A DNA stretch of 64,000 nucleotides from an uncultured Acidobacteriota bacterium (lineage in GTDB: Bacteria; Acidobacteriota; Thermoanaerobaculia; UBA5066; DATFVB01), in NCBI GenBank assembly GCA_963813155.1, contig CAWEYG010000002.1, positions 192,001 to 256,000 on the forward strand. Reading direction: 5' to 3'. The notes below the pieces were generated by a model. The model ran no database searches. It worked only from the letters and a program-made list of their open reading frames with translations, and was not told the DNA's origin. Of the stretch, positions 39,836 through 61,454 are shown one piece after another. The position numbers and the translations under genes are program-made. Within the stretch, counting starts at the first letter, position 1. Each line of letters opens with the position of its first letter.

Positions 39836-41064
39836 GGCTTCTCCGCCGCGGCCGCAGACGGAACCGCCATCGGCGAAAGGCGCCGCCGGCCCCGCGTCTG
39901 CAGCCCGTACAGGCGGATGAATCCGGCCGCGTCCTGCGGCGTGTAGCCGGTCATGTCGAACGACGCGAGGGCAGGGTTGTAGAGCGACGTCGGAGACTTC
40001 CTTCCCGTCACCGACGCCGAACCCTTGAACAGTTTCACGCGAACCTCGCCATTGACGTTTTCCGCGATCGACTGAAAGAAGGCGTCGAGCGATTCGCGAA
40101 GCGGCGAAAACCACTGCCCGAAGTACACGAGCTCGGCGTAGCGCAGCGCGAGCCGCTCCTTTTCGTGCGCGCTGTCGCGGTCGAGGGTGATCGACTCGAG
40201 CGCCTTCAGCGCCGCGACGAGAATCGTCCCACCCGGAGTCTCGTAAATTCCCCGCGACTTGATGCCGACGAGACGGTTCTCGACGATGTCGGCTCGCCCC
40301 ACGCCGTGCCGGCCGCCGATCTCGTTCAGGGTCGCGATGAGCTCCATCGGATCGAACAAGTGGCCGTCGACCGCCACCGGGATCCCCGACTCGAAGGTCA
40401 CCGTCACGTTCTCCGCCTCGTCCGGCGCGTCTTCGGGCGCGACCGTCAGCCGGTAGATCGACGGATCCGGCTCCCAGCCGGGGTCCTCGAGATTCCCGCC
40501 TTCGTGCGAGATATGCCACAGGTTGCGGTCGCGGGAGTACGGGTCGCTTCGGGTGACCGGAACTGGAATGCCCCTCTCGGCCGCGTAGTCGATCGCGTCT
40601 TCGCGGGAAACGATGTCCCACTCGCGCCACGGCGCAACGACCGCGAGCTCGGGCGCGAGGGCCTGGTAGGCGAGCTCGAACCGCACCTGGTCGTTCCCTT
40701 TTCCGGTGCAGCCGTGCGCGAGCGCGTCGCAGCCGGTCGCGAGCGCGGTTTCGACCTGCTTGCGCGCGATCAGCGGGCGCGCGGCCGCCGTCCCAAGCAG
40801 GTAGTCGCGCTCGTAAACGGCCCCGGAACGGAGGAGGGGAAAAAGGAAGTCGCGCGCGAACTCCGCCCGGGCGTCGAGCAGATGAAAATCCGCCGCCCCG
40901 GTTCGGCGGGCTTTCGCCGCGAGGCCGCGCGTTTCCTCGCTCTGCCCCACGTCGACGGCCACCGCGACCACCTCGCACCCGTAGTTCTCCTTGAGCCACG
41001 GAATGATGATCGACGTGTCGAGCCCCCCCGAGTAGGCGAGCGCGACTCTCCGGAACTTCTTCAT
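39832..41064 (-). CDS. argG: Argininosuccinate synthase
   Basis: LAYSGGLDTS, HGCTGKGNDQVRFE, SRGIYETPG. Confidence 0.97.
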   Translation of the reverse strand: MKKFRRVALAYSGGLDTSIIIPWLKENYGCEVVAVAVDVGQSEETRGLAAKARRTGAADFHLLDARAEFARDFLFPLLRSGAVYERDYLLGTAAARPLIARKQVETALATGCDALAHGCTGKGNDQVRFELAYQALAPELAVVAPWREWDIVSREDAIDYAAERGIPVPVTRSDPYSRDRNLWHISHEGGNLEDPGWEPDPSIYRLTVAPEDAPDEAENVTVTFESGIPVAVDGHLFDPMELIATLNEIGGRHGVGRADIVENRLVGIKSRGIYETPGGTILVAALKALESITLDRDSAHEKERLALRYAELVYFGQWFSPLRESLDAFFQSIAENVNGEVRVKLFKGSASVTGRKSPTSLYNPALASFDMTGYTPQDAAGFIRLYGLQTRGRRRLSPMAVPSAAAAEKP

Positions 41065-42404
41065 GGGCGTGTCTCCTCCTTCAAAATGCCGTCGAGCGCG
41101 ACAAGGAATCGCGCGAGAGCGGACCGGGGAACGATGTAAGGCGGAAGCAGGCGCAGAACGTTCTTGCGCGCCGTTCCCACCACGAATCCCTTTTCCCGCA
41201 GGGCACCGGCGACGGGACCCGCGTCTCCGTCGAGCTCGACGCCCCACATCAGGCCGGCGCCGCGGACGTCCACGATTCGGGACCGGCGCGACATCAGCCG
41301 CTTCAATTCTTTTTCGAGCCAGGTTCCGAGCTCCCGCACGCGCGAAAGCAGCTTCGCGTCTTCGATCTCGGCGAGGACCTCGAGCCCGAGGCGGCAGGCG
41401 AGCGGATTGCCCCCGAACGTCGTCCCGTGGTGGCCGGGCCGGACGGCGTTCGCCATTCTCGAGCCGGCGACGACGGCGCCGAGCGGCAGGCCGCCGCCGA
41501 GCGCCTTCGCGAGCGTGACCGCGTCGGGAACGACGCCCGCCCGCTCGAAAGCGAAAAGCGCGCCCGTGCGCCCGATGCCGCACTGGATCTCGTCGAAAAT
41601 CAGGAGAGCGCCGCTTCGATCGGCCAGCCGCCGGGCAGCGCGAAGGAACGAAGGCGAGAGGGGAACGATTCCCGCCTCCCCCATCACGGGCTCGAGCAGG
41701 ATCGCCGACGTCCTTTCGGAAACCGCGGCTTCGAGCGCCGCCTCGTCGTCCGGGCGCACGAAGCGGACTCCCGGCAGCAACGGAAGAAACGGCGTTCGGT
41801 ACTCCTCGTGCCCCGTCACCGAGAGCGACCCCATCGTCCGCCCGTGAAAGCTCTCCTCGACCGCGACGATCTCCGCCCGGCCCGGATTCGCGAGCCGGGC
41901 GAACTTCAGGGCCGCTTCGACGGCTTCCGTGCCGCTGTTGCAGAAAAAGACCTTCGAGAGGCCGGAGGCGCGGACGAGCCGTTCGGCGAGAAGCCCCTGG
42001 GCCGGGTGGTAGAACAGATTCGAGACGTGCCACAGGTTCTTCGACTCCTCCCGGAGCGCCCGAACGAGGCGCGGGTGCCGGATCCCGAGCGCGTTGACGG
42101 CGATGCCGCCGAGCAGGTCCCAGTACGGCCGCCCGTCCGCGTCGATCAGCCGAGCGCCCCGCCCGGACCGCGGATGAAAGGGCGTTCGCGCGTAGGTCGA
42201 AAGGACGAAGTTCTTCTCCCTCTGCTCGACGAGAGCAGTCTCGTCCCGGCCGAGCGGGTGGCGGGGGGCGAGACCCCCTTTTGCCGCTCGCGACGCCTTC
42301 GTAGCAAAGTCCTCAGATCGCGGCGAGCGGAAAAGCGGGGCGAGCCCCCCGACAGGACCCGTCCGGCCTCGCTTGGAGTTTCTTCTCAGGCTGCGACAAG
42401 ACAC
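41061..42404 (-). CDS. argD: Acetylornithine aminotransferase carrying an in-frame palindromic element in its N-terminus
   Basis: FFCNSGTEA, SFHGRT, DEIQCGIGRTG, AKALGGG; start is GTG 42404 or TTG 42399. Confidence 0.9.
   Translation of the reverse strand: MSCRSLRRNSKRGRTGPVGGLAPLFRSPRSEDFATKASRAAKGGLAPRHPLGRDETALVEQREKNFVLSTYARTPFHPRSGRGARLIDADGRPYWDLLGGIAVNALGIRHPRLVRALREESKNLWHVSNLFYHPAQGLLAERLVRASGLSKVFFCNSGTEAVEAALKFARLANPGRAEIVAVEESFHGRTMGSLSVTGHEEYRTPFLPLLPGVRFVRPDDEAALEAAVSERTSAILLEPVMGEAGIVPLSPSFLRAARRLADRSGALLIFDEIQCGIGRTGALFAFERAGVVPDAVTLAKALGGGLPLGAVVAGSRMANAVRPGHHGTTFGGNPLACRLGLEVLAEIEDAKLLSRVRELGTWLEKELKRLMSRRSRIVDVRGAGLMWGVELDGDAGPVAGALREKGFVVGTARKNVLRLLPPYIVPRSALARFLVALDGILKEETRP
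42248..42368 (+). repeat. Dispersed palindromic element, family A, copy 1 (inside argD)
   Basis: Long hairpin with TTTTGCCGCTCGC/GCGAGCGGAAAAG arms and a GTAGCAAAGTCCTCA apical sequence shared by 3 copies. Confidence 0.92.
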
Positions 42405-43174
42405 GTCCCTCCTTCTCCGCCCCGGAGCACGTCCGCGTGGCGCCGGGGACCGGCGATCACGACCTCCCGGACGCCCTTCCGAAGCGCCTCCAGGCAGGCC
42501 AGCAGCTTCGGCCGCATTCCTCCCTCGATCGCGGGACCGGAGAGCAGAGACTCCGCGTCCCGAACCGCGAGCCTCGAGAGGGTGCGCCCCGACTCGTCCC
42601 GCACGCCTTCGACGTCGGTGAAGAAGACGAGCCGGCGGGCGGATAGAGCCGCCGCAGCAGCGGCCGCCGCTTCGTCGGCATTCAAATTCAGCAGGCCTCC
42701 GTCGCGGCCGGCCGCGATGGGAGCGAGGACCGGCAGCATGCCGGCCGAGAGGATCGCGTTCAGGAGCCCGGCGCTCGCCCGGGCGCACCCACCGACGAAC
42801 CCGAGGTCCACGCCTCCGGACGGAAGGCGTTTTTCCGCCACGAGCGTCGCTCCGTCCACGCCGCAGATTCCCGCGGCCGGGACCCCGACCTCGCGGAGCT
42901 CCGCGACGATCGCCTTGTTGACGACTCCCGCGAGCACGCCCACGGCCGCTTCGAGCGTCGGCGCATCGGTGATCCGGAGGCCCTCGTGGATTCTTCGCGG
43001 AATCCCGAGCGACGCGAGGTGAGCGTCGAGCCTCTTCCCGCCGCCATGCACGACGACGAGGGATTCGCCGGCATTCCACGCCTCCGCGACGGCCGCGACG
43101 ACGGCGGCCCGCCGCCGCGCGTCCTCCAGGAGGCTTCCCCCGAGCTTGACGACCGTCGGGCGCGGACGTCTCAT
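42386..43174 (-). CDS. argB: Acetylglutamate kinase
   Basis: VVKLGGS, VHGGG, GLRITD, NLNAD, GGMRPKL. Confidence 0.95.
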   Translation of the reverse strand: MRRPRPTVVKLGGSLLEDARRRAAVVAAVAEAWNAGESLVVVHGGGKRLDAHLASLGIPRRIHEGLRITDAPTLEAAVGVLAGVVNKAIVAELREVGVPAAGICGVDGATLVAEKRLPSGGVDLGFVGGCARASAGLLNAILSAGMLPVLAPIAAGRDGGLLNLNADEAAAAAAAALSARRLVFFTDVEGVRDESGRTLSRLAVRDAESLLSGPAIEGGMRPKLLACLEALRKGVREVVIAGPRRHADVLRGGEGGTCLVAA

Positions 43175-50585: not shown

Positions 50586-52768
50586 GCTCGTTCCCGCAGG
50601 TCCTCCGCGCGAATCGGAAGCTCCCGAACTCTCACCCCGGTCGCGTCGAACACGGCGTTCGCGACGGCGGCATAGACGGGCGGCACCGGCTGCTCGCCCA
50701 CTCCGAGGGGCCGGACGTCGGACGGCACGATGTGCGTCTCGATGGCCGGGCAATCGTGCATCCGAACGACCGGAAAATCGCGATAGGTGCTTTGCTGAAC
50801 TCGCCCTTTCTCGAACGTGATCCTTCCGTGCAGTGTGGCGGAGAGGCCCCAGAGCACGGCGCTCTCGACCTGGCCCTCGACGCCGAGGGGGTTGACGGCG
50901 CGCCCGCAATCGATCGCGCAGACGACGCGATGCACGCGCACGTCGCCCTCCTTCCCCACGGAGACTTCGGCGACCTGCGCGACCATGGTCTGGCGGTGAT
51001 ACGCGTTGCAGGCGAACCCCCGCCCCCACCGGCGGCCGTTGCGCTCGCGCGGCAGCGGCTGTTTCCATCCCGACTTCTCCGCCGCGACCCGGACGACGTT
51101 CCGCAGGCGATCGCCGTTGTCGAGCGTGATCGTGCGAAGCTTCACCGTCCCGGGCGACGGGATGAGGTCCATCCGGAGGTCGATCGGATCGCGGCCCGCC
51201 GCGCGCGCGATTTCGTCCAGAAAGGACTCGCGGCCGAAAACCGTCGACGGGTAGCCGACCGACCTCCAGGCTCCCGTGTTCACCGGAGCCTCGGCGGGAG
51301 CGAAGTCCACGCGCAGCGCGGGAATCGAATAGGGCAGGTCGAACCCGCCCCACGGGTTCTCTTCGTACATCCCGGGGTTCTCCCGATCGAACTTCTCGAA
51401 CATCGTCAGGTGAAAATCGGAGGACCGGTGAATCCAGGCCGAGGGCCTTCCCGCGGCGTCGAACCCCGCGGAAAAGACGTGAAGCGCGGCCGGCTGAAAA
51501 AAGTCGTGGTGCATGTCGTCGGGACGCGTCCACGCGACCTGAACGGGGTACGAGACCTTCCTCGCGAGCTCGACCGCTTCGATCACATAGTCGTACGTCA
51601 GCCGCCTTCCGAACCCGCCGCCGAGAAGCAGGACGTTCAGCCGGACCTTCTCGAGCGGTATCCCGAGCAGCGCCGCGACGTCCTTCTGCGCCTCGTTGGG
51701 GGCCTGCGTGCCGACCCAGATCTCGCATTCGCCGCCGCGCACGACCGCCGCGCAATTCATCGGCTCGAGCGTCGCGTGCGCCTGAAAGGGGTAACGATAG
51801 GTCGCCTCGATCCGGCGCGGAGCCGCGGCGAGCGCGGCGTCCGCATCCCCTTCCCGGCGCGTCGTTCGAGCCCATCCCTTCAAAGCCTCCTCGAGGCGCG
51901 CCCAGTTCCCGGCCGTCGAGTCGGCGGCATGAGGCCCTTCGTCCCACTCGACCGCGAGCGCGTCGCGGCCCCGGAAGGCGGTCCAGGTGTCGGCTGCCGT
52001 GACGGCGATCCCGCTCGGGATCTCCACGACGTCGCGCACCCCGGCGATGGCCTTCGCGGCGGCCGCGTTCCACCGGATCGGTCGGGCCCCGTAAACGGGA
52101 GGGCGCGAGACAGCCGCCCGGAGCATTCCCGGGACCCGGACGTCGAGCCCGTAGACGGCGCTTCCGCCCACGATCGCCGGCCCGTCGAAACGGCGAACTC
52201 GCGTTCCGACCAGGGTGTAGTCGCGCGGATTCTTCAGCACGGGCTCCGCGGGCACCGGGAGAGCGGCCGCCGCGGCGACGAGCTCTCCAAACGGAAGGGA
52301 CCGCCCCGCCGGGCCGATCACGCGGCCGCTTTCGGTCCGGCACGAGTCGCGCGGCACGTTCCACCGCGCCGCCGCCGCGGCGATCAGCATTTCCCGCGCG
52401 GCGGCCCCCGCTTTGCGAAGGGGAATCCAACCGTCGACGACGCTGCTGCTCCCGCTCGTGCGCATGTCGGGAAACTCGGCGCCCGGCCTGGCATGCCGGA
52501 CCTCGATAGAGCTCCAATCCGCCCCCAGCTCCTCGGCGAGCAGCATGGGAAGGGCCGTGCGGACGCCCTGGCCCATCTCCGACTGAGCGGCCGTCAGCAC
52601 CACACGGCCGGACGCGTCGATCGACACCCAGGGGTTCGGCGAAAAGGCGGCCCGAGACGCCGTCGTCTTGACCGGCTCGCCCCCCGCGTTCCAGGGAAAC
52701 TGGAGAACGAGCGCGGCGGCTCCGCCGATGGCGCCCGCCCGCAGAAATTCGCGGCGGGTGGCGCTCAT
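50582..52768 (-). CDS. Xanthine dehydrogenase-family molybdopterin subunit (IorB-like) with Tat signal
   Basis: [38 protein letters not shown]. Confidence 0.9.
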
Positions 52769-59125: not shown

Positions 59126-59245
59126 GCCGAGCGGGTGGCGCGGGAGGAGACTCCCTTTTGCCGCTCGCGACGCGGGTGTAGCAAAGTCCTCAGGCTCGCG
59201 GCGAGCGGAAAAGAGGAGCGAGTCCCGCGACAGGACCCGCTCGGC
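59126..59245 (+). repeat. Dispersed palindromic element, family A, copy 2 (clpP-clpX intergenic)
   Basis: Perfect 11-bp terminal inverted repeat GCCGAGCGGGT/ACCCGCTCGGC; same arms and apical sequence as copy 1. Confidence 0.92.
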
Positions 59246-59269
59246 CGCCGGGGCTAGCTATCGTCCGCG

Positions 59270-61330: not shown

Positions 61331-61454
61331 GACCGTGCGGGTCCTGTCATGGGACTCGCCCCACTTTTCCGCTCGCTGCGAGTGTGAGGACTTTGCTACG
61401 ACTCCGCGCCGCGAGCGGCAAAAGGGGGTCTCCTCCCATGCCACCCGCCCGGCC
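61331..61454 (-). repeat. Dispersed palindromic element, family A, copy 3 (inverted, upstream of tig)
   Basis: Reverse complement matches copies 1 and 2, including GTAGCAAAGTCCTCA and ACAGGACCCG. Confidence 0.92.

What the first reader, a model, noticed from the sequence alone, without database searches (positions are those of the whole stretch)
42248..42404. A family A element is read in frame inside argD, adding 39 residues
Seen: between the AAGGAGG RBS at the end of argB and the conserved ArgD body (..EKNFVLSTYAR), the element is stop-free in the ArgD frame. It encodes TGPVGGLAPLFRSPRSEDFATKASRAAKGGLAPRHPLGR (117 bp), bounded by GGCCGG on both sides. There is no ATG/GTG/TTG between the element and the conserved body, so translation must pass through it. 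The start is either GTG 42404 or the better-spaced TTG 42399; the latter needs removal of one base, possibly at 42369. Intergenic copy 2 has a stop in the equivalent frame (..LFRSPRA*). Established: Rickettsia palindromic elements insert in frame into housekeeping genes. Inference: this is an analogous source of new peptide sequence. Alternatively the hairpin modulates argD translation or is removed from the RNA.
Basis: partly seen in the sequence, partly recalled or inferred. Interest (0 to 1): 0.8.

Follow-up and report, generated by a model that had tools for sequence, protein, structure and literature searches.

The report
Hairpin repeat translated inside argD
A small hairpin-forming repeat that normally sits between genes has landed just behind the start codon of an arginine-synthesis gene in a soil bacterium and appears to be translated as a floppy 40-residue tail, a rarer cousin of a phenomenon first seen in Rickettsia.

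Summary
A 121-nt hairpin repeat (window 42248-42368) lies between the argD start and the conserved ArgD body. It is stop-free in the ArgD frame, and no in-frame ATG/GTG/TTG follows it for 140 codons.

Being stop-free is weak evidence: 203 of 324 copy-frame combinations are open. The comparative evidence is stronger. A TTG start 8-17 nt before the argB stop is conserved across the order. Both other genomes of the genus carry the repeat at the same junction, in the opposite orientation and in frame with that TTG. The argD copy has a 105-nt core (modal 106), which moves the family's usual TGA out of frame.

In the window the conserved TTG 42399 is one base out of phase. Contigs from three public runs lack one base at 42377-42382, and this assembly has frameshifts in secA and other genes. 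The extra base is therefore probably an assembly indel; otherwise GTG 42404 serves as the start.

Only 1 of 54 genomic copies lies inside a gene, so in-frame insertion is far rarer here than in Rickettsia. Orientation also differs at another orthologous site. AlphaFold predicts the inserted tail as disordered.

This scan had already noted the repeat family on other DNA of this genome. Verdict: new member of a known kind, moderate interest. Translation itself is not shown.

The parts
42248..42368 (-). Its 105-nt core is read in the ArgD frame as about 39 residues.
   Evidence: It is repeat families D4 and D6. It folds at -77 kcal/mol, paired from 42368 to 42248. G000 holds 54 copies. On 50 copies, 90.2% of cells are paired and 15 of 44 pairs show changes on both sides. 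The core is 105 nt against a modal 106.
42397..42399 (-). TTG, homologous to the conserved argD start of the relatives. It is out of phase by one base in this assembly.
   Evidence: TTG lies 11 nt before the argB stop and 8 nt after GGAGG, the same arrangement as in most relatives' loci. In the 26 of 29 loci with an overlapping start, the start lies 8-17 nt before the stop, and 24 of these starts are TTG. In the window this frame stops after 28 codons. The TTG-to-TAC distance is 205 nt here and a multiple of 3 in 6 of 6 relatives checked.
42402..42404 (-). GTG, the only in-frame canonical start for ArgD as the window is written.
   Evidence: It lies 3 nt after GGAGG. Among the 7 junctions read, a GTG at this place occurs only in G000. 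It is also present in the X1 contig and is replaced in the X3 contig.
42408..42414 (-). AAGGAGG ribosome-binding site inside the end of argB.
   Evidence: Read directly. GGAGG or GGGAGG is conserved at the same place in relatives.
42386..42388 (-). argB stop codon TGA, overlapped by the start of argD (translational coupling layout).
42377..42382 (-). Stretch holding one base more than contigs of three other data sets. It is a probable assembly indel, or a strain-specific +1.
   Evidence: One search gives three lines. X1 record 7 (151 nt, no other differences) lacks one base at 42382. X3 record 26 lacks one base at 42377. The loose end of the X20 RNA-library contig is one base shorter between TTG and the element.
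41061..42247 (-). Conserved body of argD (acetylornithine aminotransferase) with its stop codon.
   Evidence: TIGR00707 argD scores 433.6 bits against a cut-off of 410.05 and matches residues 67-441 of P0001. Identity to the same-genus orthologue is 92%.
42389..43174 (-). argB (acetylglutamate kinase) coding region upstream.
   Evidence: ORF and gene call. A long upstream ORF ending at the same overlap is found in relatives.
59126..59246 (-). Second copy of the element in the window. It is intergenic and has a TGA in the frame equivalent to the ArgD frame.
61338..61454 (+). Third copy of the element in the window, intergenic, of the long-loop subfamily.

Best explanation
A genus-specific, non-coding hairpin repeat inserted into the short, poorly conserved N-terminal tail of argD. 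The site lies about 10 codons behind the TTG start that overlaps the argB stop. That start is fixed by translational coupling and no other start exists downstream. Only insertions that are stop-free and a multiple of three in length could therefore survive.

The element is translated as a disordered insertion of about 40 residues ahead of the first helix of acetylornithine aminotransferase. It acts as a tolerated passenger peptide. The true start is the conserved TTG 42399. The single extra base that puts TTG out of phase in this window is most likely an indel error of the assembly.

Shown: the anatomy, the conservation of the start, the in-frame state in relatives, and the indel discrepancy. 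Inferred: that the element is actually translated, and that the tail is harmless.
For: 1. No alternative start. GTG 42404 is the only in-frame canonical start within 98 codons upstream of GGIAV. The next one is 140 codons behind the element, inside invariant residues.

2. The start is conserved. In 26 of 29 relatives' loci an in-frame start (24 TTG, 1 ATG, 1 GTG) lies 8-17 nt before the stop of the upstream long ORF and behind GGAGG. The other three are L007 and L028, where my rule found no upstream ORF, and L030, which has an ATGA overlap.

3. Presence or absence by genus. The element occurs in 3 of 41 genomes searched, all three of genus g1. ArgD is 398-416 aa without it and 447-460 aa with it.

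4. G001 and G002 (G002 is unpublished) hold the element at the same junction in the opposite orientation, stop-free and in phase with TTG. A 1058-nt contig of run X2 bridges argD, the inverted element and argB.

5. The TTG-to-TAC distance is a multiple of 3 in 6 of 6 relatives, despite lengths of 75 to 213 nt.

6. The argD copy is unusual within its family. Its core is 105 nt against a modal 106. Among the 50 other copies, only 38 of 300 copy-by-orientation-by-phase combinations are both open and divisible by 3. In the argD orientation and phase the figure is 4 of 50.

7. Among the 7 junctions read and the laid contigs, only the window is out of phase. Contigs of X1, X3 and X20 are one base shorter at 42377-42382, which restores TTG.

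8. The assembly has frameshifts elsewhere. secA is split over two frames and two DnaE-like genes are split, none at a homopolymer in the two places I read.

9. AlphaFold2 with 27 sequences gives pLDDT below 50 and no secondary structure for residues 1-52. The first helix begins at residue 53.
Against: - There is no protein, ribosome-profiling or transcript-end evidence, so translation through the element is inferred.
- An open frame across the element is common by chance: 203 of 324 combinations.
- The relatives are kin, so their in-frame states are not independent.
- The X1 contig has depth 2 and all laid runs are Logan contigs, so the missing base could itself be an error or a strain variant.
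- rpoB, rpoC and the main dnaE are intact in G000, so indel errors are not everywhere.
- GTG 42404 is in frame as the window stands, so the sequence may be correct.
- A hairpin of -77 kcal/mol about 30 nt behind the start might hinder rather than permit translation.
Confidence: 0.62

Rival explanations
1. The window sequence is correct. This strain carries a real +1 insertion between TTG and the element, and ArgD starts at GTG 42404, five bases upstream. The element is still translated in frame, exactly.
For: - GTG 42404 is in frame and the frame is open to the end of argD.
- Among the 7 junctions read, this GTG is seen only in G000. It is also in the X1 contig.
- It lies 16 nt before the argB stop, within the 8-17 nt range seen in relatives. 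A GTG start occurs in one relative, L029.
- The discrepant base is not in a simple homopolymer.
Against: - GGAGG-to-GTG spacing is 3 nt, against 8 nt for TTG.
- The X1 contig is identical over 151 nt except for the missing base, carries the GTG as well, and is in phase with TTG.
- GTG arises from a synonymous Thr codon of argB, so its presence needs no selection (reading).
- The assembly has frameshifts in secA and other genes.
Confidence: 0.22
2. argD is broken in this strain: the real +1 truncates the protein after 28 codons from TTG. Alternatively, argD needs a programmed +1 ribosomal frameshift.
For: - The TTG frame ends at a TGA inside the element.
- The conserved start is out of phase only here.
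Against: - The 393-residue body is 92% identical to the G001 orthologue, has no stops, and keeps the columns invariant across 27 sequences.
- The only other aminotransferase hit listed in G000 is 36% identical (3 matches tallied, 2 listed).
- The neighbouring arginine genes are open.
- I saw no slippery motif at the stop (reading).
- An in-frame GTG is available.
Confidence: 0.05
3. ArgD initiates behind the element at a non-canonical codon, or the hairpin is cut out of the mRNA. The element would then be untranslated leader or spacer, perhaps tuning argD expression.
For: - The hairpin is very stable.
- In G000 the predicted fold pairs the ribosome-binding site and start region with the sequence just behind the element.
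- Other copies of the family sit behind genes, as regulatory or stabilising hairpins do.
Against: - By my reading, no ATG/GTG/TTG or CTG/ATT/ATC/ATA lies in frame between the element and the invariant T70-Y71 residues. The first such codon, a CTG, lies behind invariant residues.
- Relatives without the element use the overlapping TTG.
- The frame and phase are kept in both orientations.
- The pairing of the start region is not conserved in G001 or G002.
- An RNA-library contig spans the argB end and the element (weak).
Confidence: 0.06
4. The element is misassembled at this site, for example a repeat-induced chimera.
For: - The element is a 54-copy repeat.
- Short-read contigs break at its edges.
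- The assembly has indel errors.
Against: - Two other genomes of the genus have an element at the same junction.
- The X2 record 9 contig bridges argD, the element and argB. X3 record 22 and X20 record 18 run from the argD flank into the element, and X1 record 7 runs from the element into argB.
Confidence: 0.02

Closest known systems
Rickettsia palindromic elements (RPEs). Source: Ogata et al. 2000 and 2002, as described in passages of the review PMC10969869. I did not read the originals.
   Same: Both are palindromic repeats of about 100-150 bp. Both are inserted in frame into a housekeeping enzyme gene, adding a peptide at a place compatible with the fold.
   Different: - The review says nearly half of 44 RPEs lie in ORFs. 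Here 1 of 54 copies does.
- RPEs are said to encode a conserved peptide. Here the peptide differs wholly between orientations and genomes.
- The host is a free-living soil Acidobacteriota lineage, going by the titles of the related MAG records.
- I made no sequence comparison with RPEs.
REPINs (REP doublets forming hairpins) mobilised by RAYT transposases. Sources: Bertels and Rainey, PMC3337134 (passages) and PMC3116915 (search listing only).
   Same: - One long imperfect hairpin of about 110-120 nt, present in dozens of copies.
- Mostly extragenic and enriched behind genes.
- Compensatory changes keep the stem.
- Restricted to one lineage.
   Different: - No Y1_Tnp/RAYT gene was found in G000: PF01797 gave 0 hits, in a genome 90.8% complete.
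- I did not identify a short REP palindrome within each arm.
- One copy lies inside a coding sequence.
Intragenic MITEs and ERIC elements that make in-frame fusions. Source: Delihas 2007 and others, as cited in PMC10969869. I did not read the originals.
   Same: A small non-autonomous repeat whose open frame fuses with a host gene.
   Different: - No target-site duplication is evident. One filled-versus-empty comparison (L048) showed none, and the flanks of other copies are complementary rather than direct repeats.
- I did not look for a parent insertion sequence with the same ends beyond the blastn.
Mycobacterial interspersed repetitive units (MIRUs). Recalled from memory (Supply et al. 1997); not checked in any call.
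   Same: Repeats placed inside operons at gene junctions, where stop and start codons overlap, so that translation of neighbouring genes stays coupled.
   Different: MIRUs are tandem 40-100 bp units carrying their own small ORFs between genes. Here a single hairpin unit is read as part of the downstream protein.
Inversion of the spacer between imperfect inverted repeats by polymerase template switching. Sources: abstracts of PMC8604942 and PMC8794818, seen in the listing.
   Same: This is a plausible route by which a quasi-palindrome flips in place, including inside coding sequence.
   Different: Here the whole element, with its distinguishable arms, is inverted, not only the loop. The mechanism was not tested.

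Membership tests
Acetylornithine aminotransferase ArgD (class III aminotransferase) | Score above the curated cut-off of the argD family model. | tested here: met
   TIGR00707 scores 433.6 bits against a cut-off of 410.05, over residues 67-441. The equivalog NF002874 scores 446.3, just under its cut-off of 457.
Acetylornithine aminotransferase ArgD (class III aminotransferase) | Place in an arginine-biosynthesis operon. | tested here: inconclusive
   The ORFs around argD have lengths and translations that I read by eye as argC, argB, argG, argH and argJ. I ran no family scan on them.
Rickettsia palindromic elements | Sequence relationship to the RPE families. | not tested
   No RPE sequences were at hand. 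Rfam gave no hit, but I do not know whether RPEs are in Rfam. The element was found in only three genomes of one genus.
Rickettsia palindromic elements | A large share of copies inserted in frame in protein genes. | tested here: not met
   By my own crude gene caller, 1 of 54 copies lies inside a gene, 6 overlap a gene end by 11-54 nt and 47 overlap none. None of the 54 plus 52 copies has coding signal in one frame on both sides. Only the argD copy and its orthologue L038 need read-through.
Rickettsia palindromic elements | Palindromic element of about 100-150 bp. | tested here: met
   A 121-nt hairpin folding at -77 kcal/mol.
REPIN/RAYT systems | A RAYT (Y1 transposase, PF01797) gene in the same genome. 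| tested here: not met
   0 hits in G000 (completeness 90.8%). The control search matched in 6 of 14 well-known genomes.
REPIN/RAYT systems | Two inverted repeat arms forming one hairpin, kept by compensatory change. | tested here: met
   90.2% of 2174 cells are paired, against 40.9-51.8% with slid partners. 15 of 44 pairs show changes on both sides, and 0 of 500 shuffles reach the observed values. The structure was derived from the consensus of the same alignment, which favours it.
MITEs | Target-site duplication and a parent insertion sequence with the same terminal inverted repeats. | tested here: inconclusive
   No direct repeat showed at the one clean filled-versus-empty pair, L048. The outer flanks of copies are complementary, not direct. 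blastn found only copies of element size and fragments. I made no dedicated search for a parent element.
MITEs | Presence or absence at orthologous sites (mobility). | tested here: met
   23 of 52 relatives' copies have an orthologous site in G000. Of these, 18 lack the element there, and in 7 the flanks abut within 16 nt. One was checked by alignment.

The most novel reading that the evidence does not exclude
The hairpin repeat flips in place, repeatedly and on short evolutionary time, even inside a coding sequence. Because it is a near-palindrome of frame-compatible length, both orientations stay open. One essential enzyme then carries either of two unrelated 40-residue N-terminal peptides in closely related strains.

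Support:
- The argD copies of G000 and of L038 (G001's junction) alone share a derived compensatory G-C pair among 50 aligned copies, yet point in opposite directions.
- A contig about 95% identical in the flanks has the inverted form, while one about 92% identical has the window's form.
- At a second orthologous site the element is inverted at 96.8% identity. Of the four clear shared sites, two are inverted.

This would make hairpin repeats a source of switchable peptide sequence. It would also make this junction a natural test bed for inversion by template switching.
Probability: 0.3. Interest if true: 0.6.

Novelty: new member of a known kind. Interest (0 to 1): 0.42.

Why it matters
It extends in-frame palindromic-repeat insertion, best known from Rickettsia, to a free-living soil Acidobacteriota lineage. 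It also offers a clean natural experiment. One site in a housekeeping enzyme shows three different states of the insert across a genus, and all three keep the reading frame.

The case shows how translational coupling pins a start codon, so that a mobile hairpin must be translated rather than skipped. It also shows that an N-terminal tail can absorb 40 arbitrary residues.

There is a practical lesson too. The apparent start-codon puzzle is most likely a single-base assembly error. Automatic annotation of such genes will pick wrong starts or call pseudogenes.

Tried and rejected
- Rfam scan of 42100-42520 at E up to 1: no family.
- One search failed because my coordinates were out of frame. I corrected them. 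One search was a script error, fixed.
- A regex on GGIAV missed the argD frame in many loci. I replaced it with tblastn anchoring. The argB query was cut in the wrong frame and is not used.
- Search for proteins sharing the first 66 residues of P0001 in the 5.8-billion-protein set, lengths 245-783: 44 candidates, none at E up to 0.01. I did not search shorter or longer proteins.
- Metagenome scan for closer ArgD relatives: 80 loci kept, the best nine at 69-72% identity and none of genus level. It added no junction of this genus.
- Test for copies with coding signal in one frame on both sides: none among 54 plus 52 copies. This test cannot see an insertion at the extreme N-terminus, and it missed the argD copy itself.
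- RNAalifold on 50 copies gave only a partial structure. I then mapped the fold of the consensus onto the alignment.
- Sequestration of the ribosome-binding site and start codon by pairing with the sequence behind the element is predicted in G000 but not kept in G001 or G002. I rejected it as a conserved feature.
- Filled-versus-empty alignments at 7 sites were mostly uninformative because my site coordinates were loose. Only L048 was clean.
- L076 versus G000 is a complex partial match and is not counted as clear.
- Parts of the stretch without contig cover in the laid runs, and the small word shares of runs X4-X19, carry no weight.
- Searches of REPIN papers for in-place flipping or coding insertions found no such passage. 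This is not a claim that it is not in print.
Full report
**What is there**

The arginine genes lie on the minus strand. argB ends at TGA 42388-42386. Inside its last codons stand AAGGAGG (42414-42408), GTG (42404-42402) and TTG (42399-42397).

From GTG 42404 the frame runs without a stop for 447 codons into a protein that passes the argD family model. TIGR00707 scores 433.6 bits against a cut-off of 410.05, and the match begins only at residue 67.

Between the start region and the conserved body lies a 121-nt element, 42248-42368. It folds into one long imperfect hairpin of -77 kcal/mol.

GTG 42404 is the only in-frame canonical start within 98 codons upstream of the GGIAV motif. The next in-frame ATG/GTG/TTG is 140 codons behind the element. 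Read from TTG 42399, the frame stops at a TGA inside the element after 28 codons.

**The element family**

- blastn finds 54 copies of at least 86 nt in G000: 18 on C1, 16 on C2, only 2 on the 1.05-Mb C3, and 18 on smaller contigs.
- Rfam has no match.
- I aligned 50 copies: 3 from the window and 47 from two related MAG records. On these, the long hairpin has 90.2% of 2174 cells paired, against 40.9-51.8% when partners are slid. 15 of 44 pairs show changes on both sides, and 0 of 500 shuffles reach the observed values. The structure came from the consensus of the same alignment, which favours it.
- I wrote a crude codon-based gene caller (3150 genes, 81% of the genome covered). By its calls, 47 copies overlap no gene, 6 overlap a gene end by 11-54 nt and 1, the argD copy, lies inside a gene.
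- The 53 copies outside genes sit between convergent genes 21 times, divergent genes 5 times and tandem genes 27 times. Intergenic length predicts 10.1, 12.9 and 30.0 (chi-square p = 0.0002). There is no orientation bias in tandem contexts: 13 copies point the same way as the genes and 14 the opposite way.
- No RAYT-type transposase was found: PF01797 gave 0 hits in a genome 90.8% complete.
- Among 41 related genomes the element occurs in 3, which are all three members of genus g1 (at most 21 matches were scored per genome).
- A scan of one genome per species found the central motif in 52 places, all in two MAG records. These are titled Thermoanaerobaculia bacterium and uncultured Acidobacteriota bacterium.
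- Of these 52 copies, 23 have an orthologous site in G000. 18 of those sites lack the element, and in 7 the flanks abut within 16 nt, so the element comes and goes.
- Two earlier notes of this scan had already described this family on other pieces of the same genome. My counts and the missing RAYT agree with them.

**Is an open frame meaningful?**

Not by itself. 203 of 324 copy-by-frame combinations are stop-free. In the very orientation and phase used by argD, 27 of 51 copies are open.

Length adds information. The argD copy has a 105-nt core, whereas the modal core is 106 nt (27 of 51 copies) and only 12 of 51 cores are divisible by three. Typical copies, such as window copy 2, have a TGA in that phase. 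The argD copy lacks one base just before it, which moves the TGA out of frame.

Among the 50 other copies, only 38 of 300 orientation-by-phase combinations are both open and divisible by three. In the argD orientation and phase the figure is 4 of 50.

**The start codon is fixed by the neighbour**

In 26 of 29 relatives' loci an in-frame start (24 TTG, 1 ATG, 1 GTG) lies 8-17 nt before the stop of the long upstream ORF and behind GGAGG. Of the other three loci, my rule found no upstream ORF in two (L007, L028) and one has an ATGA overlap (L030).

The window has the same motif, with TTG 8 nt behind GGAGG and 11 nt before TGA. Relatives have no other start between this TTG and the conserved body.

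The tail between the start and the conserved NFVL position varies in length:
- 14-20 codons in the two other families of the order;
- 29-33 codons in two genomes of the sister genus;
- 40 codons in one metagenome contig (L090);
- 58-65 codons in genus g1 and in G004, which has 4.2 tandem 30-nt units there, in frame.

The tail is thus a permissive place, but whatever lands in it must be read.

**The same junction in the genus**

G001 (ArgD 92% identical, flanks 86.6% identical in DNA) and G002 (unpublished; ArgD about 81-84% identical) both carry the element at the same junction. In both it has the opposite orientation, is stop-free and is in phase with TTG.

The TTG-to-TAC distance is 213, 192, 213, 105, 78 and 75 nt in six relatives, all multiples of three. 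It is 205 nt in the window.

The three peptides are unrelated in sequence, so only the frame is conserved.

G002's copy belongs to the long-loop subfamily and is shortened at one end (my reading). At least two events therefore shaped this site.

The copies of G000 and of L038 (the G001 junction) are the only two of 50 aligned copies with a G-C pair at alignment columns 26 and 119. The family has C-G there. Among the 54 G000 copies, only the argD copy has that change on the 5' side. A shared derived compensatory change in copies that point in opposite directions argues for inversion in place rather than two insertions.

Orientation also differs at another orthologous site, C1:622830-622950. There the element is 96.8% identical and inverted, while the flanks align at 77.9% overall. 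Two further sites keep their orientation, and a fifth is a partial match that I do not count.

**The one-base problem**

Among the 7 junctions read and the laid contigs, only the window has the conserved TTG out of phase. I laid Logan contigs of four public runs on 41900-42700.

- X1 (soil; holds 65% of the sampled words). Record 7 is 151 nt at depth 2, covers 42354-42505 and has no other difference. It lacks one base at 42382, which puts TTG in phase, and it keeps the GTG.
- X3. Record 26 is 154 nt with 12 differences. It lacks one base at 42377 and has another letter at 42404, so it has no GTG. Record 22 continues through the element without gaps.
- X20 (an RNA-seq library of a root metagenome). 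Record 18 covers 42230-42369 in the window's orientation and runs on into an argB end. By my count of its loose end, it is one base shorter than the window between TTG and the element. DNA can be present in such a library.
- X2. Record 9 is 1058 nt. Its flanks are about 95% identical to the window (18 differences in 332 nt and 8 in 156 nt). It bridges argD, the element on the opposite strand, and argB.

All of these are contigs, some of very low depth, so each could carry errors of its own.

I then asked whether G000 has indel errors elsewhere.
- rpoB, rpoC and the main dnaE are each in one frame.
- secA is split over two frames at C1:50725-50741.
- A second DnaE-like gene on C4 is split.
- A third DnaE-like gene on C6 lies in four pieces.
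- Neither of the two breaks I read is at a homopolymer.

An essential gene in two frames points to assembly error. I therefore judge the extra base at 42377-42382 to be an assembly indel, at about two to one. The alternative is a real +1 with GTG 42404 as the start. GTG arises from a synonymous Thr codon of argB and stands only 3 nt behind GGAGG. In either case the element is read in frame.

**Structure**

AlphaFold2 on an alignment of 27 ArgD sequences gives pLDDT below 50 and no secondary structure for residues 1-52. The first helix spans residues 53-66. The overall model is moderate: mean pLDDT 74.2 and pTM 0.76. This fits a disordered tail ahead of the fold. A low-confidence stretch is not proof of disorder.

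**How it most likely works**

1. Shown: the element is a non-coding, hairpin-forming, genus-restricted repeat that comes and goes at intergenic sites.
2. Inferred: one copy entered the argD tail in an ancestor of genus g1. It persisted because its length and phase kept ArgD intact.
3. Inferred from one shared derived pair and from a second inverted orthologous site: it was later inverted in place in one lineage. In G002 it was replaced or converted.
4. Inferred: ribosomes that finish argB reinitiate at the overlapping TTG and unwind the hairpin while translating it.

I cannot say whether the hairpin also tunes argD expression. The predicted pairing of the start region with the sequence behind the element in G000 is not kept in G001 or G002.

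**Comparison with what is known**

The closest analogue is the Rickettsia palindromic element. The review PMC10969869 (passages read) describes it as inserted in frame in many genes, with nearly half of 44 copies in ORFs. The same review cites intragenic ERIC elements and MITEs that make in-frame fusions.

The present family differs in three ways. It is almost wholly intergenic. It encodes no conserved peptide. It lives in a free-living soil lineage.

In shape and distribution it resembles REPINs (PMC3337134, passages; PMC3116915, listing only), but no RAYT was found. Template switching between imperfect inverted repeats is reported to invert spacers (abstracts of PMC8604942 and PMC8794818) and could explain flipping. 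I did not test this.

The passages I searched in two REPIN papers do not mention flipping at orthologous sites or coding insertions. That is not evidence that it is unpublished.

**Verdict**

The start-codon puzzle is probably an assembly indel. It is a new member of a known kind. An orientation difference within a coding sequence is the one feature that might be new. No experiment or protein data exist for this uncultured organism.

Noticed in passing
G000 C1:49164-51594 (outside the window): secA matches its family model in two pieces that lie in different frames and overlap at 50725-50741. This is a frameshift in an essential gene, most likely an assembly indel. A DnaE-like gene on C4 (4883-7517) is split in the same way, and another on C6 (223577-226371) lies in four pieces.
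   Followed up: partly
G000 contig C3 against C1 and C2: The repeat is very unevenly spread: 2 copies on the 1.05-Mb contig C3, against 18 on C1 (0.92 Mb) and 16 on C2 (0.88 Mb). Several sites occupied in the related MAG are empty on C3. The cause could be replicon or region bias, or a binning issue.
   Followed up: no
L003:1334-1459 (G004, sister genus): The same N-terminal tail of ArgD holds 4.2 tandem copies of a 30-nt unit, in frame. Each unit contains a motif one base different from the reverse complement of the hairpin element's terminus. The element itself was not found in that genome.
   Followed up: partly
L087 and L089 (metagenome contigs, ArgD about 71% identical): Here the argB stop lies about 90-100 nt before the argD TTG, and a copy of the start motif remains at the argB end. 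In these lineages the overlap has been pulled apart by an insertion between the genes rather than inside argD.
   Followed up: no
G000 copies such as C2:57478-57639, C1:469784-469945 and C13:7082-7243: About a third of the copies share further conserved flanks of about 20 nt on each side. The flanks are themselves inverted repeats rich in GCGCCGGC. This is either a longer subfamily or an element nested in a second palindromic repeat. At L048 the inserted unit includes these flanks.
   Followed up: partly
G000 sites C3:640364-640489, C4:110235-110355, C1:54768-54886 and C5:107007-107125: At four sites orthologous to element copies in the relatives, G000 has a gap of 118-125 nt that blastn does not recognise as this element. 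The gaps may hold a different repeat family of the same size.
   Followed up: no
L029 (G032), argD locus: The open frame from the argD start runs for 815 codons, about twice the usual length. It may be a fusion with the downstream gene or a lost stop codon.
   Followed up: no
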